Source: a virus
DNA length: 64,000 nucleotides
Reading direction: 5' to 3' (one strand)
Virus record (IMG/VR): IMGVR_UViG_3300006853_000015
Made by a program: the position numbers and the translations under genes. This document shows, in pieces, positions 6,144 through 62,040 of the stretch. Every line of letters starts with the position of its first letter. The first letter of the stretch is position 1. The notes under the pieces are model-generated. The model was not told the origin of the DNA and did not search any database. It worked only from the letters and a program-made list of their open reading frames with translations.

Positions 6144-6647
6144 TTACGCGGTTAAGTCTGGATAGAAGGAAACCGTGCGGAACAAGACGCCAGCTTCGGC
6201 GAAGATATCCCGCGCATAATGGGAATTCCTTCCCCATCGTGGGTCTGGCGCTTTCATATCCCAAGACACAAACTCACGGATACCGGCCTGCACGATTGAT
6301 GCGGCACATTGGTCGCACGGATAACCACCCCAAACCATGCATTGCAGATTGCGCGCGGCCATGTACATGGAACAGTTCAAGGTGGTGATGCCCATGCGCG
6401 CCGCCGTTGCAATCATGTTCTGCTCAGCGTGAACAATCATGCGGTACTTTATGGCACGGTTGTGAAGACGCCTTTCCGTATCATCCACGCCACGGGGCAG
6501 GCCGTTAAAGGAAAAGCCAAGCCCTTCCTTTCCAGGCCCTACCAGAACGCAGCCAACCTGCGTGGAAGGGTCTTTGCTCTCCCTTGCCACGCGGGTAGCC
6601 ATGTCAAGGAACAGATAGTCCCAATGGGACGGCGGATCATGCAGCAC
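6144..6647 (-). CDS. dCMP deaminase
   Basis: SKDPSTQVGCVLV, VHAEQN and PCDQC zinc motifs. Confidence 0.92.
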   Translation of the reverse strand: MLHDPPSHWDYLFLDMATRVARESKDPSTQVGCVLVGPGKEGLGFSFNGLPRGVDDTERRLHNRAIKYRMIVHAEQNMIATAARMGITTLNCSMYMAARNLQCMVWGGYPCDQCAASIVQAGIREFVSWDMKAPDPRWGRNSHYARDIFAEAGVLFRTVSFYPDLTA

Positions 6648-19175: not shown

Positions 19176-19422
19176 GAGTGCTTGGCGTACCGAAGCACGC
19201 AAGGCGCTAGCTGCACTTAACGGTAGGCGTCTAACCCAAGTTGCGATTACTTTGCACTGTAGGGCGCGGGGTATTGTGCCTGTGCCCCCGGATTGTTGGG
19301 GGAGCTTCACAGCACAGCTTATCAGAGAGCAGGTGTTGGAAATTGTGTCCCGCACGGCCCCAAGGGGCGGCCGAGCGGGCGCTTTCGTATTCAGGGTTTG
19401 CGTTAGAAAGGAAAACGTATGA
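19168..19422 (+). CDS. Hypothetical protein
   Basis: 84-aa ORF coupled on both sides. Confidence 0.5.
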   Translation: MSESAWRTEARKALAALNGRRLTQVAITLHCRARGIVPVPPDCWGSFTAQLIREQVLEIVSRTAPRGGRAGAFVFRVCVRKENV

Positions 19423-20651
19423 CTAACCCCAAGGATATTGTTGGGCAAAGCAAGGCATCCACCCATTGCATCCCGCCCGTTGCCCTTCTCGAAATGGGAG
19501 CGGCGCTGCACTTCGGGGCCTACCACGCCAAGCGGGCAGACGGTGGGGAAGGATACGGCCCGTTCAATTGGCGAGAGCAGCGGCTTCGCATGAACATCTA
19601 CACGGATGCTCTCATGCGCCATTACCTTGCCTTCATGGATGGACAGGACCGCGCCGATGACAGCAAGGCGCACCACCTTGGCCACATCATGGCGTGCTGT
19701 GCGATCATCATGGACGCCATGGAACTGGAAACCATGGACGATACGCGGCCCGATATCACGGGGCAGTATAACAAGGTGGCCGCGCGCATCCGTGATCAGA
19801 ACCTTGATCGTGCCGCAGCGATCATGGAAGCGATGGCGAATGATCCTGTGGACGAAGGCGATCTTTCGCAGGGCACCTATGGGGAATTGGCCGCGCGAGA
19901 ATTCCCAATTGATCAGGACACAAGCCTGCCAATTCACGAATATGCCGGGGCTTTCGGCATGAAGATGAACCCACCGCAACATACCCGCGAAACTGCCCTG
20001 GAAGATGGCCGCAGCGCCATTAACAAAGGGCCGTGGCCGTGGCCAACGCCAGACCACATAGAAGACTGCTTTAAACTTGGCCGGTTGCGGCATCCGCATT
20101 GCCCCGGTGCGGCGTTGATCGAAACAAGCCTGATGGTTTGGCGCGCTGGCGCGGCCAACGGCCAGCTTGCGGCGCACGGCCTACTTCCTGAAAATTCGGC
20201 CTTCCCAGATGGCGGATTATATGCAGCCGAGGCCGCTAAATACGGCTACCTTCTTACACAGCCGGTGCCATCGCTTGATAATGGAACGCGGTTGCTTACC
20301 CCATCTCCACTTTTGGAGAAGCATGTTCTTGAGCGCTGCTTTTACGAGAAGGTTAGAACCTCTGTTAAGGGACAACTCTTCGAAGAAGTTATAGAGAGAG
20401 CGGCAGATTTGGCTAAAGATGTTCTCAGAATATCGCCGAATATCCCAAGGGAAGAATGGCTTGCTCGGCTTGAAAGGAATGCGCAATACCCGGTCTACTT
20501 CTCAAGTGATGGCCGCTCCAAATATGAGAGCACCCCGGAAGAAATTCACGACCTTGCCATTCAAATGCTTCATACCCCGCGCGGATCATACGCGGGGCTA
20601 ACGCGCAAGCCTGCCGAGCACGATAGCGCGGCCTGGACAGGAAAAGATTAA
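19419..20651 (+). CDS. dATP/dGTP diphosphohydrolase-domain (DUF5664-like) protein with a long unknown C-terminal extension
   Basis: MTNPKD..G..K....IPPVAL.E...GA...YG.FNWR...Y.DA.MRH...GQD...S..HHLGH..AC in the first ~115 aa. Confidence 0.8.
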   Translation: MTNPKDIVGQSKASTHCIPPVALLEMGAALHFGAYHAKRADGGEGYGPFNWREQRLRMNIYTDALMRHYLAFMDGQDRADDSKAHHLGHIMACCAIIMDAMELETMDDTRPDITGQYNKVAARIRDQNLDRAAAIMEAMANDPVDEGDLSQGTYGELAAREFPIDQDTSLPIHEYAGAFGMKMNPPQHTRETALEDGRSAINKGPWPWPTPDHIEDCFKLGRLRHPHCPGAALIETSLMVWRAGAANGQLAAHGLLPENSAFPDGGLYAAEAAKYGYLLTQPVPSLDNGTRLLTPSPLLEKHVLERCFYEKVRTSVKGQLFEEVIERAADLAKDVLRISPNIPREEWLARLERNAQYPVYFSSDGRSKYESTPEEIHDLAIQMLHTPRGSYAGLTRKPAEHDSAAWTGKD

Positions 20652-55824: not shown

Positions 55825-57846
55825 CTAAAGCTTTCTGGCCGCCTGTGCCATGCGCTTGCGTAAGCCTTCGCCAACGCTTTTGCCGCTATGGCTGTCTTCT
55901 TCGGTAACGCCGCCGCTTCTTTCAACGCCTTCCGGGATCAGATGGCAATTCAGAAGCCACGCGGCAGCACGCGCAAGGGCTTCGGCGTCCAGATAATGGT
56001 TCTCGGATGAGCGCACAATCCACTCCGGCTTACCCGTATCGGGGTCTATGATGCGGTTTTCCGCCGCAACTTGACGGCAATAATCTTCCGTGGCGTTGCT
56101 GGGTAGCAGGAACGCGCCCGGCTTATCCATCGGAAGGCGGATTGCGCTATGCGTCCATTGCTTGAAGAAATCGCTGTCCACGTGAACAAGCTCAATCTTC
56201 CGCCTTAGGCCGCCGTCATCAATGCCATGCTCCACAATGCTAAGGGGCTTCATGCGCACGTGGTGGCCGCGTGTAGCGCGGCACAACCATGAATTCTTCC
56301 AACAGAAATCATAAACGGTATGTGCGTCGCCGCTTGATTTCTTGTTTGGCCGGAAGCCCGCGTCTATGAACGCCTTTGAGACGAGCATGCCCGCGCGCTC
56401 GGCCGTAAGAACCTTGTAAAGCTCTTCCCAAACGTCATTGTGATGCGTTGGACCCCAAATCTCATTGGCGTCCACAAGCCAGGATGTGCCGCGAGAACCC
56501 CAACCACGGATAACGTAGACAAGCCGCTTTTGCTGCACGTCCACGCCTGCCGTAAGGATCACCGCGCCCAAAGGCACGTTGCCCATGGGGTACGGAAGCT
56601 TGCGCCCGGCTACTTCCTTCCACGTGACAGCGTTTTCAACTTCCAGATGGGAGAAGCATTCGCCGAAAGCGGAATTGATGACCGTTTGGATTTTGTTTGC
56701 ATCGCCTGTGGCCATTTCACCAAGTAGGCGCGCAGCACGCTCCCCAAACGTTCTAAACGGACTACACAGCCCCGAAACCCAAAAGCTAATGGTGGTAGTG
56801 GCGGGATGGCTTCCCGCCACTGTACCGGCCTTATTTACGGTTTGGCCCGGTGCCACATAAACGCCGCGCTCGTTCATCTCCTGCTTATGGTGCTCTTCGA
56901 TCACCCCACCGCATCCGGGGCATTCCAGATACGCGGAATGCAGCACCTGCGCGGGGCTCTCGTGCTTCGGCCATTTCAGCAGGTCGGCGCGCGGCACAAA
57001 GAAGTCTCCGCAGTGCGGACACGGCCAGCACCAATGATGCCGCGTGCCCTCCTGCCAAAGCTTCCAGATGCCGCTTTTGATTTCATCGGGCTCCCGATAC
57101 TTCCAGAAGCGCAAGCCGCTGTTGGGGTCAAGCTCCGTTTCCACCAAGCCAAGGGAGGGCGTGGAAACCACGCCAACCGAGAAGTCATCGTATGTTTCGC
57201 CACGCGCTTCCACAAGGCCAAGGGGATCGCCCTGGCCGCGAATGTTGTGCAGCATTTCGTCATATTCGTCCACCACGGCCAAGCCAGCCGGATCAGACTT
57301 AAGGGCTGTGGAGCTGCCGCCATGCGCCAAGCGCACGCGCACGCCAGCAATGCGCTTAAGCGTCTTGCTTTGCATACGGTCGCCTAGCAACTTGGCTTGC
57401 AACGTGGCCGATTGCTCAAACAGCTCCACCAACCGGGGCTCAAACTGCGTTTTGACGAATTCCGCAGTAGGCCCCGCGTAAAGGATAGGCACGGGCCTTT
57501 GATCAAGCCGCGCACCCATAACGTCTAGCAGCGCTTCCGTCTTGCCGCTTTGGGCGGCCATGGCGAGAACGCAGCGCTTATATTCGCCGCTGTCCAGCGC
57601 GTGCTCGAAAGGGATGATGTACGGGGTTAGGCCGGGATCGCGAGCGCCCGGCCTGCCGCTGGTTTCTGGATAGACGCGGTTTTGATATGCCCAGATATCG
57701 GGCTTATTCCTCTCTACTGGCTCTAGTATCTTCGCGGATAGCTTCGCAAGCCTCGCCATATTTCGAAGCGAGCGCGGCCAGTTCGCGCCTGATGCCGTCA
57801 ACGGCACGTTCAATGCGGTTTCTGACATCCCTGTCCCTTGTTCCAA
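55825..57846 (-). CDS. Terminase large subunit (lambda gpA family)
   Basis: Walker A MAAQSGKTE, VVDEYDEM, STP, WPCPHCG..F, CPGCG..I.E, LTAGVDVQ, AFIDAG, ENHYLDA. Start may be 57828 or 57759. Confidence 0.96.
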   Translation of the reverse strand: MEQGTGMSETALNVPLTASGANWPRSLRNMARLAKLSAKILEPVERNKPDIWAYQNRVYPETSGRPGARDPGLTPYIIPFEHALDSGEYKRCVLAMAAQSGKTEALLDVMGARLDQRPVPILYAGPTAEFVKTQFEPRLVELFEQSATLQAKLLGDRMQSKTLKRIAGVRVRLAHGGSSTALKSDPAGLAVVDEYDEMLHNIRGQGDPLGLVEARGETYDDFSVGVVSTPSLGLVETELDPNSGLRFWKYREPDEIKSGIWKLWQEGTRHHWCWPCPHCGDFFVPRADLLKWPKHESPAQVLHSAYLECPGCGGVIEEHHKQEMNERGVYVAPGQTVNKAGTVAGSHPATTTISFWVSGLCSPFRTFGERAARLLGEMATGDANKIQTVINSAFGECFSHLEVENAVTWKEVAGRKLPYPMGNVPLGAVILTAGVDVQQKRLVYVIRGWGSRGTSWLVDANEIWGPTHHNDVWEELYKVLTAERAGMLVSKAFIDAGFRPNKKSSGDAHTVYDFCWKNSWLCRATRGHHVRMKPLSIVEHGIDDGGLRRKIELVHVDSDFFKQWTHSAIRLPMDKPGAFLLPSNATEDYCRQVAAENRIIDPDTGKPEWIVRSSENHYLDAEALARAAAWLLNCHLIPEGVERSGGVTEEDSHSGKSVGEGLRKRMAQAARKL

Positions 57847-58354
57847 TCATGGCGGGAAGACCGGCCAGACGCGATACAACTTCGCCCATCATCGTGGCAA
57901 CGAAAGCCTCGGCTTCTTCCACGGGCACAAGCTGGCCGCCTTTCGCGGCCATGCGCTGCTCAATCTCTTTCGCGCGAATAGCTTGGAGCTTCTTTTGGGT
58001 TTCCGTGCCAAGGTTCTGACGCCTTTCGCCCTTCGCCCAAGCAATGATGCCGCGAATGCTTTCTTGAAGACTGTACAGCTTGTTTTTGTCCGGCGCGATG
58101 AAGCCGCCCTTTGCCAAGTCGTCAAGCTGCCTTGACGGCATGCCGCATAGCTCACCAAGCTCGAATTGCCGGTATCGGCCATCTTGCAGGAACTTGATAT
58201 ATCCCTGCATCAGCTCAAGAAGGTGATACCGGCCCCGCTTCATAGCGTAATAGCCAAGGTTGCCGATGCGCTTTACATCACGCTCGGGGATATCAAGGAG
58301 CTTCGCGGCCTCAAACGCCGAAAGATAACCCCTTTCCGCCTGTTCTTCGGCCAT
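57704..58354 (-). CDS. Terminase small subunit (Nu1-like)
   Basis: Directly upstream of terminase large; two winged-helix-like repeats, a coiled coil, and GQLVPVEE...L.GLPA. Confidence 0.8.
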   Translation of the reverse strand: MAEEQAERGYLSAFEAAKLLDIPERDVKRIGNLGYYAMKRGRYHLLELMQGYIKFLQDGRYRQFELGELCGMPSRQLDDLAKGGFIAPDKNKLYSLQESIRGIIAWAKGERRQNLGTETQKKLQAIRAKEIEQRMAAKGGQLVPVEEAEAFVATMMGEVVSRLAGLPAMIGTRDRDVRNRIERAVDGIRRELAALASKYGEACEAIREDTRASREE

Positions 58355-58362
58355 TCATCCTC

Positions 58363-59121
58363 CTAGCGCAAGCCCGCAACCTTGTGCGTCTGAACCGAGA
58401 CAAGCCAATCGTTCACCCGCGCCGCTTCCAGGCAAAGCTCCGTTGCCTTCTTCGACATGGAAAGCGGCTGCAAATAAACGGGCACGTGGTACGCCGTGGC
58501 GCTTTTGCGCACTTCAAGGCGTCTCGCCAGAAGCTTTTGCAGCGTTGTGATATCCGCTGGTTTTCCAACCGGCATCTTGATTTCGTCGGCGCGCAATAGC
58601 GCGTCATCAAGCACCACAAGGCCGCCCGGCATATCCACCTTGGGCGAGAGAGTTACGAAGGTTCCGGGGTCCGCGCTGATTTCGTGCGTGCCGCTGGTTT
58701 CGATCTGGGTTGTAAAGCCCAAGCTTTCGAGATCGTTTGTAACCTTGAAAAGGTCGTAAACGCACGGCTCGCCGCCCGTGAACACCACGTGGTTGTTGCC
58801 GTATTCCTTGGCTAGGCGCACCAGGAACGCGGCTTCCACGATGGCGAATTCAGGGGAGCCCGGCGCTTTGTTCGCAAGCGCCACATAGTGCACCAGATTG
58901 GCCGCGTTCACCTTCCAGGTGTATTTCGTATCGCACCACGGGCACCCTACGGCACAGCCTTGAAGCCGGAAGAAGGTGGAAGGCTTCCCCGTATGGGAGC
59001 CTTCCCCTTGCATCGTTGAGAAGTGTTCGTTAAGGAGCAAGCCTTCCGCAAAGCGCGTTTTGCTGCTCTCGCTTGGCCCGCCGCTTTGGCTTGTGCCCTT
59101 GGGCATATGCTGCTCTGTCAC
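58363..59121 (-). CDS. queE: 7-carboxy-7-deazaguanine synthase (radical SAM)
   Basis: NEHFSTMQGEG..TG.P..F.RL.GCAVGCPWCDT (CxxxCxxC), VVFTGGEP, IETSG, SPK, YLQP, SVQTHK. GGAGG RBS plus GTG at 59121. Confidence 0.95.
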   Translation of the reverse strand: MTEQHMPKGTSQSGGPSESSKTRFAEGLLLNEHFSTMQGEGSHTGKPSTFFRLQGCAVGCPWCDTKYTWKVNAANLVHYVALANKAPGSPEFAIVEAAFLVRLAKEYGNNHVVFTGGEPCVYDLFKVTNDLESLGFTTQIETSGTHEISADPGTFVTLSPKVDMPGGLVVLDDALLRADEIKMPVGKPADITTLQKLLARRLEVRKSATAYHVPVYLQPLSMSKKATELCLEAARVNDWLVSVQTHKVAGLR

Positions 59122-59491
59122 GTTCCGCCTCCACCCTGTTTTCCCACGGAAAGACAAGCCATGTCTCCGGGTCGATGATATACGCCACGGTCCCGCCGTG
59201 AACATGCTCCGATTTATCAAACCACGCGGCGAAGTGAACAACCGGAAAGGTGTCCATCGTTTCGCCGCTTTCGATAACATCGTCTATAACCAGCGTGTTA
59301 AGCTGGTCAACTTCGGCCCTATCCGTGATTAGCGGGATGCCAAGGCCATGGCTTACGGCAACCGCCATCGGCAGGCCGCCGCGCGGGATGCCGTACACGC
59401 TTTTAACGGAGCCCGATTTCACATAGTCCGCGTAAAAACGGATAAGGGCCTCAGCCCCCCTAGTGAAGTGAGCCCACGTAACCGCCAGCAT
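59030..59491 (-). CDS. Purine phosphoribosyltransferase (Gpt-like, type I PRTase)
   Basis: VYGIPRGGL, PRPP-binding LVIDDVIESGETM, WLVFPWE. Start MLAVTW at 59491. Confidence 0.85.
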   Translation of the reverse strand: MLAVTWAHFTRGAEALIRFYADYVKSGSVKSVYGIPRGGLPMAVAVSHGLGIPLITDRAEVDQLNTLVIDDVIESGETMDTFPVVHFAAWFDKSEHVHGGTVAYIIDPETWLVFPWENRVEAERDRAAYAQGHKPKRRAKREQQNALCGRLAP

Positions 59492-59924
59492 GGAGCCGGT
59501 ATGAAGCGCGGCATTTGCCGGTTTCTTCAATGATCGTTTCAACGAGTTGCACCCCCGTGCCAAATAACTGCATGGGGCCAACGCAGCAGACCAAATGCCT
59601 AGCCATGTTCTCCGCTGTAGGGTTGAAAGGAACGGCAACCACTGTTCTGTCGATTTCCATGAGAGCCCGCAAACGCGGGTCTTGTTCCCATAACAGAAAC
59701 TTGTGGTCCCAATTCTCCTCAAGCCATGCGCACAGCAACGTCTTGATTTGAGAAAAGTCCAGCACACGCCCAATGTGGTCAAGCGTGTGCGCCGCGCACA
59801 CAAGGTGGAATTTGTAGTTGTGGCCGTGAAGGTGCGCGCACTTCCCCTCATGGCCCCAAACGCTATGACCGGCGCAAATCTCGTGCGTGCGCGTGGCCGT
59901 GATAACGCCGTTTGTGATGCTCAC
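59460..59924 (-). CDS. queD: 6-carboxy-5,6,7,8-tetrahydropterin synthase
   Basis: AGH.V.GHEGKCAHLHGHNY, LDFSQIK, WDHKFL, NPTAENMA, ET..C.A.Y. GTG start overlaps the folE stop. Confidence 0.93.
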   Translation of the reverse strand: MSITNGVITATRTHEICAGHSVWGHEGKCAHLHGHNYKFHLVCAAHTLDHIGRVLDFSQIKTLLCAWLEENWDHKFLLWEQDPRLRALMEIDRTVVAVPFNPTAENMARHLVCCVGPMQLFGTGVQLVETIIEETGKCRASYRLHAGGYVGSLH

Positions 59925-60625
59925 TTTGCAAGCTCCATCAGCCCCAACATACGCTCCATTTGGTGGGGTAGGTTCATTGTTCCGCGCGCGGCCTGGGTAA
60001 TCATCACGGTGCCCGCATCTCGCACGCCACGCCAGCACGCACAGAAATGCCGCGCCTGAACGATCACGCCAACGCCACGCGGCGCAAAGGCCGCGTGCAG
60101 GGCTTCCACAAGCTGTTGCGTGGCTTCCTCCTGTATCTGCGGCCTGGACATGATGTGTTCTGTGATGCGCCCAAACTTCGATAGACCGAGCAGGGCGTTC
60201 CCTGAGAGCACGCCTACCCATGCCTTCCCAATGATGGGAACCAAATGGTGGCTACAAGCCGAATTAAAGCCCCAAGGGCCTGCTACAAACATATCGGAGC
60301 CCTGCACCACGTTGGGGAACGAAGTGGCTTCAGGCGGCCTTAAATAGCGCCCCTTGAACACTTCGCGCACGTACATCTTCGCCACGCGCGCGGCAGTGTT
60401 CTTCGCGTTGGGATCATTCTCCCTGTCGATCAGAAGGGCGTCAAGTACGCCCTCCATCGCAAGCTTAACCCCTTCCTCGATGCACTCCATTTCGAAGTCA
60501 TCGATATAATCGGCCAGCGATGCATTGGCGTGCATCGAAACGCCCTTCGCCTTTAGCTGGGATCGAACTTTTTCGATCACCAGCCTAACGTCATACGGCT
60601 TTTCCATGGTATCGGCCCGCGTCAT
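59921..60625 (-). CDS. folE: GTP cyclohydrolase I
   Basis: TAARVAKMY..EVF.G, SACSHHL.P..G, GLSKFGR...RPQIQE, ARHFC..WRGV. Confidence 0.95.
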   Translation of the reverse strand: MTRADTMEKPYDVRLVIEKVRSQLKAKGVSMHANASLADYIDDFEMECIEEGVKLAMEGVLDALLIDRENDPNAKNTAARVAKMYVREVFKGRYLRPPEATSFPNVVQGSDMFVAGPWGFNSACSHHLVPIIGKAWVGVLSGNALLGLSKFGRITEHIMSRPQIQEEATQQLVEALHAAFAPRGVGVIVQARHFCACWRGVRDAGTVMITQAARGTMNLPHQMERMLGLMELAK

Positions 60626-61454
60626 AGTGCTGCATCAGCAAGCGCGTATAGATGCTTGTCGTGATCGCAAAGAACAGTTTCACACCAAGAACGCGGCGTA
60701 ACTCACAAGAAAATTCCACCCACGAGGCCGTTGTGATGTTCTGCCAAGTGGAACACACACCTTTGCCAGCGTCTGGGGCAAAGATTGAATAGGGATCATA
60801 TCCCAGCTTGCGGATGCGCTCGGCCACGCGCCGGTTAAGCTTGGCGCGGGTAAGCTGGCGCGGGTGAAGCAACTCCATCACGCCGTGCCCCATATAGACG
60901 GATACCGTACCGAAGCGCCCGCCCTGTTTCCAAGAGCTACTGTCCACGCTGTACGGCTTCAGAAGCTTGATTAGGGGCCAACGTGTCATGCCCAGCAAAT
61001 GCGCCTTGCGCCCTGCCGACCATTCAATCATTTTGGCCGCCCATTGCGCGCCCGCCAGATTGGCGGACGCAAGGCCGCCGAAAGCCACGTAATCAGAAGT
61101 CTGATAGTAGGCGTTGACGGTTTCTTCCGTATCGCCCCGCGTGGCGATGGGGATAGGCTTGAAGCCCCGCGAGAGCATGATTTCGTAATTGCGTAGGGTC
61201 TGCTCCGGTTGCCCGATCACGTCTAGCGTGTAATAGCAATCCGGCATAAGGCCGTCCATGCGCAACGTATCCAGGAAGCCGCAATAGCCGTCAAGCGTTA
61301 CCTCCTTCCCCATCTTGAAGGCGGTAAAGGCCCCGCTGTCCAACATGAATTCGATATCCTCCCGCCTGCTCTTCACCAGCTTGCGCAGGTCTGAACCAAG
61401 GTAGGAGTAGGATATCAGGATGGGAATTCTATTCGATTTCGAGGCTGTCTCCAA
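60591..61454 (-). CDS. dpdA: DpdA-like DNA guanine transglycosylase (TGT fold)
   Basis: FMLDSGAFT, LDVIG, YVAFGG, HLLG.T, YSVDSSSW motifs; adjacent to folE/queD/queE. Subfamily not determined. Confidence 0.8.
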   Translation of the reverse strand: METASKSNRIPILISYSYLGSDLRKLVKSRREDIEFMLDSGAFTAFKMGKEVTLDGYCGFLDTLRMDGLMPDCYYTLDVIGQPEQTLRNYEIMLSRGFKPIPIATRGDTEETVNAYYQTSDYVAFGGLASANLAGAQWAAKMIEWSAGRKAHLLGMTRWPLIKLLKPYSVDSSSWKQGGRFGTVSVYMGHGVMELLHPRQLTRAKLNRRVAERIRKLGYDPYSIFAPDAGKGVCSTWQNITTASWVEFSCELRRVLGVKLFFAITTSIYTRLLMQHYDAGRYHGKAV

Positions 61455-62040
61455 AATCGATGTCTCCCCCGTCTCGCATGGCCTGCAAGGCGTTATCCAG
61501 GTGCTTCTTCACCGTGTCTTTGTGCTGCGGCAGGCAACGCACCTTGATTACCGCTTTCAGCTCTGCCACGTCTCCGGCCAGCTCTTCCGCCGTAACGGTG
61601 GGCTTCCAACCGCCAATGATGGTTTGCAGCTCATCATCCGAGAAACCGGCCCCGGCCGGGTCCATATCTTGGTCGATAAGCTTCTGAACAGCGGCGGCCA
61701 GAAGCTCGTCGTTCCACGTGCTGTCTTCGCCGAAACGGTTGTCAGCCAGGATAAGCTCCAAGGCTTCCGCATCCGTGCCCTCGAAGATGGCGCACGGAAT
61801 GCTTGCCGCCTTGTCCACGCAACCAAACGCCTGCCAACGCTTATGACCGGCCAGAATGGTGCCATCGGGCCGCGCCACAAGCGCGCCCACGAAACCCACG
61901 CGCTTCATGTAATCGGCCAGCTTCTGAATTGAAGCCGCATCGTGCTCGCGCGGGTTTTCGGGATGCGGCTTGAACCAATTCCAGGGCCGCACTTCGATTT
62001 CTGATACCTTGGCCTCAAGGCCCTTCTTCAGCTTCGCCAT
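61429..62040 (-). CDS. ParB/Srx N-terminal-domain protein
   Basis: KPHPENPREH...IQKL...GF....ARPDGTILAGHKRW.A...LADNR. Confidence 0.85.
   Translation of the reverse strand: MAKLKKGLEAKVSEIEVRPWNWFKPHPENPREHDAASIQKLADYMKRVGFVGALVARPDGTILAGHKRWQAFGCVDKAASIPCAIFEGTDAEALELILADNRFGEDSTWNDELLAAAVQKLIDQDMDPAGAGFSDDELQTIIGGWKPTVTAEELAGDVAELKAVIKVRCLPQHKDTVKKHLDNALQAMRDGGDIDFGDSLEIE

What the first reader, a model, noticed from the sequence alone, without database searches (positions are those of the whole stretch)
58363..61454. QueC-less 7-deazaguanine DNA-modification cluster wired directly to terminase
Seen: contiguous overlapping genes dpdA-like, folE, queD, PRTase and queE run straight into the terminase small subunit (9-bp gap). 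I found no queC (PP-loop SGGxDS), queF or arcS anywhere in the window. Established: FolE, QueD and QueE convert GTP to 7-carboxy-7-deazaguanine (CDG); QueC is needed for preQ0; DpdA-type TGT-fold enzymes swap guanine in DNA for a deazaguanine. Inference: the virion DNA carries CDG or a CDG-derived base rather than the usual preQ0/G+, unless host QueC is borrowed. The position suggests late, packaging-linked modification.
Basis: partly seen in the sequence, partly recalled or inferred. Interest (0 to 1): 0.82.

Follow-up and report, generated by a model that had tools for sequence, protein, structure and literature searches.

The report
QueC-less phage deazaguanine DNA-modification cluster
A soil phage carries a gene set for swapping guanine in its DNA for a 7-deazaguanine base, but lacks the last biosynthetic enzyme (QueC); this layout recurs in related phages, was already noted in one isolate, and leaves open whether the host finishes the base or the phage installs the carboxy intermediate.

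Summary
On the minus strand, packed or overlapping, lie ParB-like, DpdA-like, FolE, QueD, a Gpt-like PRTase, QueE, TerS and TerL. No QueC, QueF, ArcS, DpdL or canonical TGT was found in the 65.9-kb record, which CheckV rates 88% complete.

- Of 88 related metagenomic loci, most run ParB–DpdA–QueC (or Gat-QueC)–FolE–QueD–(PRTase)–QueE, and several are followed by a terminase. Sitting next to the terminase is therefore inherited family synteny, not a special wiring.
- QueC has been lost several times in this family. It is usually replaced by a methyltransferase-like or DpdL-like gene.
- One independent virus rated 100% complete has the same bare layout as the window.
- A 2019 paper already noted that Mycobacterium phage Bipper lacks only QueC and might carry CDG.

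Which base ends up in the DNA cannot be settled here. My odds are about 0.45 for preQ0 made with host QueC and about 0.30 for CDG itself.

Two points seem overlooked in the papers I read. The minimal XGPRT-like PRTase occurs in 33 of 69 complete clusters and is fused to FolE in several phages, which fits guanine recycling. A ParB-like gene precedes DpdA in 64 of 88 loci, recalling the bacterial DpdA–DpdB pair.

Verdict: new variant of a known kind, moderate interest.

The parts
61429..62040 (-). ParB N-terminal-domain protein (203 aa) with a GxxRxxA-type motif (GHKRWQA). It overlaps the DpdA start by 26 nt. Candidate functional analogue of bacterial DpdB.
   Evidence: PF02195 is weak and PHROG 620/498 score about 1e-25. 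A homologue lies directly upstream of DpdA in 64 of 88 related loci. G65, H66 and R68 are invariant. Bacterial DpdB is a ParB-superfamily ATPase that DpdA needs (PMC10164549).
60591..61454 (-). DpdA-like DNA guanine transglycosylase (287 aa, TTG start), of the 9g/Iggy (DpdA1-like) kind.
   Evidence: PHROG 887 2e-32. tblastn gives 35% identity to Iggy DpdA, 9g-like and Bipper DpdA. There is a large full-length metagenomic family. The AF2 model has pLDDT 93. Best folds are ArcTGT Z 14.9, bacterial TGT Z 14.3 and bacterial DpdA 7ui4 Z 13.8. D39, D78, H152 and D171 are invariant.
59921..60625 (-). GTP cyclohydrolase I (FolE), 234 aa.
   Evidence: PF01227 6e-38 and PHROG 2197. The CSHH and HFCACWRG motifs are visible in the translation.
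59460..59924 (-). QueD (CPH4 synthase), 154 aa. Its GTG start overlaps the FolE stop (GTGA).
   Evidence: PF01242 1.5e-23, TIGR03367 and PHROG 2389 1e-48. It has the true QueD motif CxxxHGH, not the DpdL motif LxxxHRHxF. It is the only PTPS-fold gene in the record.
59030..59491 (-). Minimal XGPRT/Gpt-like type I purine phosphoribosyltransferase (153 aa). It lacks the ~25-residue stretch of XGPRT just before the PRPP motif.
   Evidence: The family profile hits P. horikoshii purine PRTase 1vdm at 5e-19 and XGPRTs at 1e-8 to 1e-6. The AF2 model has pLDDT 89, and Foldseek finds XGPRT at TM about 0.65 and rmsd 2.2-2.6 A. The RGG, DDxxE/D-SG-xT and WxVFPWE motifs are conserved.
58363..59040 (-). QueE (CDG synthase, radical SAM). 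The likely start is TTG 59040; an alternative is ATG 59106.
   Evidence: TIGR04322 scores 242 bits against a cutoff of 200. The CxxxCxxC motif is present.
57704..58354 (-). Terminase small subunit. It starts 8 nt after the QueE stop, and its RBS overlaps that stop codon.
   Evidence: PHROG 57 4e-12; sequence.
55825..57846 (-). Terminase large subunit (GpA type).
   Evidence: PF05876 3e-47 and PF20454 7e-50.

Best explanation
This is a working phage module for 7-deazaguanine DNA modification, of the family laid out as 'ParB-DpdA ... QueE-terminase', in a stripped form that lacks QueC.

Proposed mechanism:
1. FolE, QueD and QueE turn GTP into 7-carboxy-7-deazaguanine (CDG). This follows from established knowledge of these enzyme families.
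2. The DpdA-like TIM-barrel enzyme exchanges guanine in double-stranded phage DNA for a free deazaguanine base after replication. This is inferred from its homology to tested phage DpdAs.
3. The ParB-like protein encoded just upstream probably helps, as the NTPase DpdB helps bacterial DpdA. This is inference.
4. The small XGPRT-like PRTase most likely converts the released guanine to GMP. That would pull the exchange forward and refill the GTP pool that FolE consumes. This is inference, supported by PRTase-FolE fusions in other phages.
5. The genes are translationally packed with the terminase genes. No better-than-chance promoter or terminator lies between them, so they are probably made together in the late period. 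This position is inherited family synteny.

The phage has no enzyme acting after CDG. My single most likely reading is that the host's QueC converts the phage-boosted CDG into preQ0, and dPreQ0 is what enters the DNA.
For: - Gene identities and packing. The promoter and terminator scan found no more sites than shuffled sequence gives.
- DpdA: it has the TGT fold, standing above generic TIM barrels. The catalytic-type Asp and His residues are invariant. Its sequence relatives are phage DpdAs, including Iggy, whose DpdA is linked to dPreQ0 (PMC10484667).
- Family context: 57 of 69 complete related clusters carry QueC or Gat-QueC inside the cluster.
- Pocket motif: the window's DpdA is sister to the Gat-QueC group and shares its small-residue motif after GG (GGLA against GGVA/GGVT). 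It does not have the GG[IL]N motif that arose convergently in the methyltransferase-type and L024/L026 QueC-less lineages.
[quoted passage not shown] CDG was inserted about 40-fold less well by VH7D DpdA2 (PMC10516641). Many phages encode DpdA alone and draw on the host pathway (PMC6884629).
- Hosts: four of four bacterial genomes carrying this DpdA family also have their own chromosomal QueC.
- PRTase: it has an XGPRT-like fold and motifs. It is present in 33 of 69 complete clusters, always with DpdA. It is fused in frame to FolE in PaMx25 and in four metagenomic loci.
- ParB-DpdA pairing: 64 of 88 loci. The role of DpdB is from PMC10164549.
Against: - The host is unknown. The DNA comes from rhizosphere metagenomes.
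- In a sample of 151 genomes from the class of one related host, probably Alphaproteobacteria, only about 48 had a full-length QueC match. That sample includes one unpublished genome, G041, which gave only a weak partial hit.
- Most QueC-less relatives have gained another gene in the QueC slot (methyltransferase-like, DpdL-like, Bipper gp4). This suggests that QueC loss usually goes with new chemistry at CDG, not with borrowing from the host.
- Bipper-type phages keep a QueC-less cluster in a host that has no queuosine pathway at all (PMC6884629).
- The PRTase lacks the stretch that precedes the PRPP motif in XGPRT, so it may be inactive or act differently.
- No experiment exists for any protein of this subfamily.
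Confidence: 0.45

Rival explanations
1. The pathway really ends at CDG, and the DpdA installs CDG itself (dCDG), or a spontaneous derivative of it, as the main modification, independent of host QueC.
For: - No QueC, DpdL, QueF, ArcS or other candidate enzyme is present in the 65.9-kb record.
- An unrelated virus rated 100% complete (the L026 record, 49.7 kb) has the same bare DpdA-FolE-QueD-PRTase-QueE-TerL layout. It has no QueC and no methyltransferase homologue.
- QueC loss is polyphyletic on the DpdA tree.
- Bipper and Typha phages keep QueC-less clusters in a host without the pathway (PMC6884629).
- A DpdA can insert CDG at low efficiency, and dCDG exists in STSV-2 DNA (PMC10516641).
- Only about a third of the sampled genomes of the likely host class have a full-length QueC.
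Against: - CDG was a poor substrate in the one DpdA tested, about 40-fold lower.
- The window's DpdA pocket motif resembles those of its preQ0/G+-type neighbours.
- dCDG has been seen only at trace level, 149 per million nucleotides, in one archaeal virus.
- The L024/L026 DpdA has the GG[IL]N motif and the window's does not, so the two 'bare' clusters need not act alike.
Confidence: 0.3
2. An unrecognised phage enzyme processes CDG further, for example into DG, ADG or an ester. It would be one of the many unannotated ORFs, or the PRTase acting on a deazaguanine as TubE and ToyH do in tubercidin and toyocamycin biosynthesis. The DNA would then carry some other derivative, or the modified base would enter as a nucleotide.
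For: - Other QueC-less relatives use extra genes in the slot.
- The PRTase is a 6-oxopurine type, and 7-deazaguanines share the O6/N1/N2 face (established knowledge of XGPRT).
- A protein with a dATP/dGTP diphosphohydrolase N-terminal domain is encoded at 19419-20651.
Against: - No DpdL, methyltransferase or QueC-like homologue was found.
- The phage has no DNA polymerase, ribonucleotide reductase or nucleotide kinase to support a nucleotide route.
- The PRTase always co-occurs with DpdA, and it also occurs in QueC-containing clusters.
- Its fusion partner is FolE, the first enzyme, not QueE or QueC.
- The acidic residue in the PRPP motif is conserved. In HGPRT/XGPRT it contacts N7 (from memory), which favours true purines.
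Confidence: 0.1
3. QueC exists but lies in the missing ~12% of the genome. Or the module is a decaying remnant that no longer modifies DNA.
For: CheckV rates the record 88% complete, with no terminal repeats, and the cluster is 2.6 kb from a contig end.
Against: - In all 57 QueC-positive relatives the gene lies inside the cluster.
- All five genes are intact, with their catalytic motifs and tight coupling.
- The same layout occurs in a complete genome.
Confidence: 0.1

Closest known systems
Mycobacterium phages Bipper and Cracklewink (Bippervirus) and Typha (Typhavirus)
   Same: The order is ParB-like, DpdA, QueD/QueE/FolE, a small gene, terminase, portal. There is no QueC, and Bipper has a single PTPS-fold gene, so no DpdL was detected. 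The DpdA is 35-36% identical to the window's over its N-terminal two thirds. The 2019 paper already suggested that Bipper DNA could carry CDG.
   Different: These phages have no PRTase. They carry a conserved 141-aa hypothetical gene (gp4) in the QueC slot. The gene order is QueD-QueE-FolE. The host is an actinobacterium lacking the whole pathway. The DpdA is longer (357 aa).
Metagenomic relatives L010 and L007 (Gat-QueC type) and L024/L026 (bare type)
   Same: L010 runs DpdA, Gat-QueC, FolE, QueD, PRTase, QueE, with a DpdA 46% identical. That is the window's cluster plus Gat-QueC. L024/L026 runs ParB, DpdA, FolE, QueD, PRTase, QueE, TerL with nothing in the QueC slot, and its genome is rated 100% complete.
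   Different: L010 can make preQ0 or G+ by itself. The L024/L026 DpdA has the GG[IL]N motif, sits in a different clade next to the methyltransferase-type clusters, and has a QueD of the CxxxHGY type.
Queuovirinae and Rosebush-type phage deazaguanine clusters (9g, CAjan, Iggy, PaMx25, Rosebush)
   Same: They combine DpdA with FolE, QueD and QueE, and guanine exchange is post-replicative. PaMx25 and NP1-like phages also carry the same PRTase domain. Rosebush-type clusters also sit just upstream of the terminase.
   Different: They encode QueC or Gat-QueC and give dPreQ0 or dG+. In PaMx25 the PRTase is fused to FolE. Gene order and genome position differ in Queuovirinae.
DpdL-type QueC-less phages (Cellulophaga phiST, Acidovorax ACP17), which carry dDG
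   Same: FolE, QueD and QueE are present without QueC. phiST also encodes a homologous PRTase.
   Different: They have the QueD paralogue DpdL (LxxxHRHxF), and phiST has DpdA3 with complete replacement of G. The window has neither DpdL nor a DpdA3-type enzyme. In phiST the PRTase sits beside ribonucleotide reductase, not inside the cluster.
Bacterial Dpd modification module (DpdA, DpdB, DpdC)
   Same: A TGT-fold DNA transglycosylase is encoded next to a ParB-superfamily protein. The fold match to DpdA 7ui4 is Z 13.8.
   Different: The family profile finds no sequence-level match to bacterial DpdA. The phage ParB-like protein is half the size of DpdB (203 aa, against a monomer of about 40-47 kDa inferred from the reported 80-95 kDa dimer). 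It has GxxRxxA rather than the DGQQR motif. There is no DpdC and no restriction genes.
E. coli / Yersinia XGPRT (Gpt) and P. horikoshii purine PRTase (1vdm)
   Same: The fold, the RGG loop, the acidic PRPP motif and the C-terminal W-x-x-x-P-W-D/E base-stacking motif are shared.
   Different: The phage protein lacks about 25 residues just before the PRPP motif (from memory, the beta2-loop-beta3 flexible hairpin). Sequence identity is 24-28%. Its genomic context is a DNA-modification cluster.

Membership tests
Phage DpdA (9g/Iggy-type DNA guanine transglycosylase) | TGT-superfamily (beta/alpha)8 barrel fold | tested here: met
   The AF2 model has pLDDT 93. VIA-align gives ArcTGT Z 14.9, QTRT2 Z 14.4, bacterial TGT Z 14.3 and DpdA 7ui4 Z 13.8, above generic TIM barrels at 12.2 or less. 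Foldseek's top hits are TGTs.
Phage DpdA (9g/Iggy-type DNA guanine transglycosylase) | Direct sequence similarity to DpdAs with experimental backing | tested here: met
   tblastn gives Iggy DpdA 34.9% (2e-19), 9g-like phages 35.6% (1e-20) and Bipper 35%. PHROG 887 scores 2e-32.
Phage DpdA (9g/Iggy-type DNA guanine transglycosylase) | Catalytic and substrate Asp residues, and the conserved His that DpdA2 lacks | tested here: met
   D39 (LDSGAF), D78 (LDVIG), H152 (HLLG) and D171 (VDSSSW) are invariant in 41 to 86 family members. Their mapping to TGT D102/D156/D280 rests on motif likeness recalled from memory, not on a structural superposition.
Phage DpdA (9g/Iggy-type DNA guanine transglycosylase) | Acts on DNA, and which base it inserts | not testable with these tools
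   This needs LC-MS/MS or an in vitro exchange assay.
Canonical tRNA-guanine transglycosylase (Pfam TGT, PF01702) | Match to the family HMM | tested here: not met
   No PF01702 hit for the protein or in six frames of the record. The family profile finds no TGT in PDB sequences.
Complete preQ0 pathway (FolE, QueD, QueE, QueC) | FolE, QueD (CxxxHGH) and QueE present and intact | tested here: met
Complete preQ0 pathway (FolE, QueD, QueE, QueC) | QueC (PP-loop ATPase, PF06508) | tested here: not met
   No hit in the whole record and no SGGxDS motif in any frame. The controls matched in 13 of 14 genomes.
DpdL-type dDG cluster | A second T-fold paralogue with LxxxHRHxF | tested here: not met
   There is one PTPS-fold gene only, no L...HRH motif, and no tblastn hit with the DpdL-like protein of L085.
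XGPRT/Gpt-type 6-oxopurine phosphoribosyltransferase | Type I PRTase fold with the PRPP motif and a base-stacking Trp | tested here: met
   Profile to 1vdm at 5e-19 and to XGPRTs at 1e-8. Foldseek gives TM 0.65 and rmsd 2.2 A to 5xtk. R37, G38, G39 are invariant, D70 and D71 nearly so (at least 90%), and W111, F114, W116, E117 are invariant.
XGPRT/Gpt-type 6-oxopurine phosphoribosyltransferase | The stretch just before the PRPP motif (from memory, the flexible catalytic loop between beta2 and beta3) | tested here: not met
   The alignments to 1vdm and XGPRT show a gap of 22-26 residues in every phage member.
Bacterial DpdA-DpdB pair | A ParB-superfamily NTPase encoded beside DpdA | tested here: inconclusive
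   The ParB_N domain and a GxxRxxA motif are present, and the pairing holds in 64 of 88 loci. The protein is much smaller than DpdB, and the DGQQR motif was not seen. NTPase activity cannot be tested here.

The most novel reading that the evidence does not exclude
The phage-encoded pathway truly ends at CDG, and this DpdA installs 2'-deoxy-7-carboxy-7-deazaguanosine at high density. That would make it the first phage with dCDG as its principal DNA modification. The Gpt-like PRTase would close a self-feeding loop (excised guanine to GMP to GTP to CDG), and a ParB-like NTPase would act as a phage DpdB.
Probability: 0.25. Interest if true: 0.75.

Novelty: new variant of a known kind. Interest (0 to 1): 0.5.

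Why it matters
7-Deazaguanine modifications shield phage DNA from restriction enzymes and from Cas9. They are also a growing source of natural DNA chemistries.

A cluster that stops at CDG with no follow-up enzyme tests an open question cleanly: can a DpdA use CDG natively, or does it depend on host QueC? The existing work leaves this unanswered for Bipper.

The survey adds three testable leads of wider reach:
- An overlooked minimal guanine-type PRTase occurs in about half of such clusters, and is fused to FolE in the PaMx25-like (Nipunavirus) Pseudomonas phages.
- A conserved ParB-like partner of phage DpdA may parallel bacterial DpdB.
- A methyltransferase-like gene has replaced QueC in three DpdA lineages, two of them with a convergent pocket change. 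This hints at a deazaguanine derivative not yet described.

Tried and rejected
- The search for related loci with the single DpdA protein in IMG/VR found no close relative. The alignment-based scan worked.
- The search for related loci with TerL in bacterial genomes found nothing, so no prophage-based host call was possible.
- Complex prediction on DpdA plus the ParB-like protein gave 'no answer', score 0.00. This is not evidence either way.
- The DpdA family profile against PDB sequences found nothing meaningful. Only fold comparison links it to TGT and DpdA.
- Searches of the record for a methyltransferase-like, DpdL-like, YhhQ-like or divergent QueC-like gene, using relatives' proteins as queries, gave only chance-level hits.
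- The promoter and terminator scan of 54-64 kb gave no more sites than shuffled sequence, so no operon boundary could be placed.
- Full-text searches found no paper linking a phosphoribosyltransferase to DpdA or to phage deazaguanine clusters. The terms 'phosphoribosyl' and 'ParB' are absent from the main text of the 2023 NAR survey and of the Iggy paper, and 'phosphoribosyl' is also absent from the 2019 paper. Supplements were not read.
- Sequencing-run look-up: two rhizosphere metagenome runs hold the stretch and may be its source.
- I considered that the PRTase replaces QueC, and rejected it because the PRTase co-occurs with QueC or Gat-QueC in 27 of the 33 clusters that carry it.

Full report
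**What is there.** The window is the reverse strand of bases 29-64028 of a 65,930-bp IMG/VR virus record. CheckV rates the record 88% complete, with no terminal repeats. Two rhizosphere metagenome runs hold the stretch and may be its source.

On the minus strand, reading 5' to 3', lie these genes:
- A ParB N-domain protein, 61429-62040.
- A DpdA-like protein, 60591-61454. PHROG 887 scores 2e-32, and there is no Pfam TGT hit.
- FolE, 59921-60625 (PF01227 6e-38).
- QueD, 59460-59924, with the catalytic CxxxHGH motif.
- A small PRTase, 59030-59491.
- QueE, 58363-59040 or to 59106. TIGR04322 scores 242 bits, above its cutoff.
- TerS, 57704-58354, then TerL and the portal gene.

The genes overlap or abut. 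ParB and DpdA overlap by 26 nt, DpdA and FolE by 35 nt. FolE and QueD share a GTGA stop-start. QueD and the PRTase overlap by 32 nt, and the PRTase and QueE by 11 or 77 nt. QueE and TerS are 8 nt apart, with the TerS ribosome-binding site over the QueE stop codon. A consensus scan found no more promoter-like or terminator-like sites than shuffled sequence gives.

**Absence of QueC and other late enzymes.** PF06508 finds nothing in six frames of the whole record, while the controls matched in 13 of 14 genomes. No SGGxDS motif occurs in any frame. QueF, the ArcS core DUF5591 and canonical TGT are also absent. Only one PTPS-fold gene exists, and no LxxxHRH (DpdL) motif is present. Proteins that fill the QueC slot in relatives have no homologue here. 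The caveat is that about 12% of the genome may be missing.

**The DpdA-like protein.** It belongs to a large metagenomic family of proteins about 280 aa long with no Pfam domain. An AlphaFold model built on 41 family members is confident, with pLDDT 93. An exhaustive structural comparison puts the TGT superfamily on top, above generic TIM barrels: archaeosine TGT at Z 14.9, QTRT2 at 14.4, bacterial TGT at 14.3 and the bacterial DNA preQ0 insertase DpdA (7ui4) at 13.8. D39, D78, H152 and D171 are invariant. Among isolates, the best sequence matches are phage DpdAs of Iggy, 9g-like phages and Bipper, at about 35% identity. The protein therefore groups with phage DpdA and not with tRNA TGTs.

**Family context.** I collected 88 related loci and located each gene in them by tblastn.
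- The usual order is ParB-like, DpdA, QueC, FolE, QueD, optionally the PRTase, QueE. In the window's nearest relatives the QueC is a Gat-QueC.
- A terminase often follows (for example L005).
- A ParB-like gene precedes DpdA in 64 of 88 loci.
- Of the 69 loci that show both FolE and QueE, 57 have QueC and 33 have the PRTase.
- Mycobacteriophages show the same placement upstream of the terminase: Bipper, Cracklewink, Typha and Knocker.

Adjacency to the terminase is thus family synteny. It is compatible with late expression, but it is not evidence of a packaging-coupled mechanism.

**QueC-less relatives.** Twelve complete clusters gave no QueC hit.
- Five of these twelve (L018, L021, L023, L033 and L038 = L040), plus L045, whose QueE is not in the held stretch, have a 192-196-aa class I methyltransferase-like gene in the QueC slot.
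- L083 and L085 have a DpdL-like gene (LRDRHRHLF) and a YhhQ/Vut_1-like transporter.
- L072 has a divergent PP-loop protein.
- L024 and L026 are one virus, and have nothing in the slot, like the window. Their 49.7-kb record is rated 100% complete and has no QueC and no methyltransferase homologue.

On a DpdA tree these losses are scattered. The window sits alone on a deep branch, sister to the Gat-QueC group.

The residue after the GG motif differs between groups. From memory, this site corresponds to the TGT site that reads the 7-substituent.
- It is Val in 89% of QueC-type DpdAs.
- It is Asn in two separate methyltransferase-type lineages and in L024/L026.
- It is Ala in the window, close to its Gat-QueC neighbours, which have GGVA or GGVT.

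So the window's DpdA shows no sign of a re-tuned pocket.

**What the literature already says.**
- Hutinet et al. [quoted passage not shown] They also noted that mycobacteria lack the pathway.
- The 2023 survey (PMC10516641) found dCDG at trace level in STSV-2 and dDG in phiST. It proposed DpdL for QueC-less phages. It also showed that VH7D DpdA2 inserts CDG about 40-fold less well than its preferred base in queC-deleted E. coli.
- I found a single PTPS-fold gene in Bipper, so it too appears to lack DpdL.

**Host QueC.** The host is unknown. A GcrA-like gene and the complete absence of GANTC sites (0 against 193 expected) point to an alphaproteobacterium. Related DpdA loci occur in MAGs of Rhodomicrobiaceae, Acetobacteraceae and Methylobacterium, and in a Paraburkholderia isolate. 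All four of the genomes tested (the three named MAGs and the Paraburkholderia isolate) have a chromosomal QueC besides the phage copy. In a sample of 151 genomes of that class, however, only about 48 have a full-length QueC match. Many other hits are partial PP-loop matches. The sample includes one unpublished genome, G041, which gave only a weak partial hit and does not affect the count. Borrowing from the host is plausible but not assured.

**The PRTase.** A profile of 19 family members matches P. horikoshii purine PRTase at 5e-19 and XGPRT/Gpt enzymes at 1e-8 to 1e-6. The model (pLDDT 89) superposes on XGPRT with TM about 0.65 and rmsd 2.2-2.6 A. Three motifs are conserved: the RGG loop, the acidic PRPP motif and the W-x-V-F-P-W-E base-stacking motif. 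Every phage member lacks the roughly 25 residues that precede the PRPP motif in XGPRT.

Homologues occur in known deazaguanine phages: phiST, immuto_2-6A, VpKK5, Stenotrophomonas and Variovorax phages, and the PaMx25/NP1 group. In PaMx25 the domain is in frame with folE, giving a 297-aa fusion protein that RefSeq splits into two genes. Four metagenomic loci show the same fusion.

Four facts favour recycling of the excised guanine into the GTP pool over a TubE-like route that makes deazapurine nucleotides:
- The PRTase is fused to the first enzyme of the pathway.
- It always co-occurs with DpdA.
- It is present whether or not QueC is.
- This phage lacks its own polymerase, ribonucleotide reductase and nucleotide kinases.

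I put salvage at about 0.55. The papers I searched do not mention this gene.

**The ParB-like gene.** Bacterial DpdA needs DpdB, a ParB-superfamily ATPase (PMC10164549). The conserved ParB-DpdA pairing in phages suggests an analogous helper. The complex prediction gave no answer, so this remains an inference.

**Verdict.** The cluster is a new variant of a known kind: QueC-less, DpdL-less and PRTase-bearing. My odds for the base in the DNA are:
- dPreQ0 via host QueC: about 0.45.
- dCDG: about 0.30.
- Another derivative or route: about 0.10.
- QueC in the missing sequence, or a decaying module: about 0.10.

Interest is moderate at 0.5. The central idea is already in the literature and cannot be resolved by computation. 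The locus and its relatives do give clean experimental handles and three overlooked components.

Noticed in passing
window 1-64000: GANTC, the CcrM/HinfI site, is completely absent: 0 sites against 193 +/- 14 expected from shuffles. Together with a GcrA-like gene (Pfam GcrA 2.5e-7 among the early ORFs), this points to an alphaproteobacterial host.
   Followed up: partly
window 19419-20651 (+): A 410-aa protein has an N-terminal dATP/dGTP diphosphohydrolase domain (PF18909, 9e-20) and an unassigned C-terminal 270 aa. A purine dNTP hydrolase in a guanine-modifying phage may be relevant, but it was not pursued.
   Followed up: partly
window 6144-6647 (-): A dCMP/cytidine deaminase-family gene (PF00383, about 1e-17).
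   Followed up: no
L018:1533-2111, L021, L023, L045:3774-4352, L033:5369-5950, L038:2112-2702 (= L040): A ~192-aa class I methyltransferase-like gene (weak PF13489) occupies the QueC slot in three separate DpdA lineages. In two of them the DpdA motif after GG has changed convergently from GGLV to GG[IL]N. This may mark an undescribed CDG-derived base, such as an ester.
   Followed up: partly
L083:1435-2234 and L085:1469-2271: These QueC-less clusters carry a DpdL-like T-fold gene (LRDRHRHLF) followed by a YhhQ/Vut_1-family membrane protein (PF02592, 5e-8).
   Followed up: partly
L002:4917-5810 (Pseudomonas phage PaMx25, NC_041953); also L055:10115-10957, L082:3563-4393, L087:10984-11943, L088:3103-3948: In-frame fusion proteins of the PRTase domain and FolE. 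The RefSeq annotation of PaMx25 splits the gene and calls a different-frame 'hypothetical protein' gp38 over the PRTase part.
   Followed up: yes
L025:5469-5873 (= L028:12636-13040) and L032:4011-4403: A second PRTase-like paralogue lies downstream of QueE with degenerate motifs: AAG in place of RGG, and no DD-x-x-x-SG-x-T. It is probably non-catalytic.
   Followed up: no
L091:2047-2472 (Bipper gp4), L114, L115: A conserved 141-aa hypothetical protein sits between DpdA and QueD in the QueC-less Bippervirus and Typhavirus phages. It has no Pfam hit and no DpdL motif, and is a candidate CDG-processing enzyme.
   Followed up: partly
L116:5581-6147 (Mycobacterium phage Knocker): A gene annotated 'adenylate kinase' lies between FolE and the terminase in a Rosebush-type cluster. 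A nucleotide kinase there would fit a guanine-to-GTP recycling theme.
   Followed up: no
L008:6010-6627: In a near relative, DpdA is followed by QueD and then a 205-aa ORF with no family hit and no match to FolE, QueE, QueC or the PRTase. The contig ends there.
   Followed up: no
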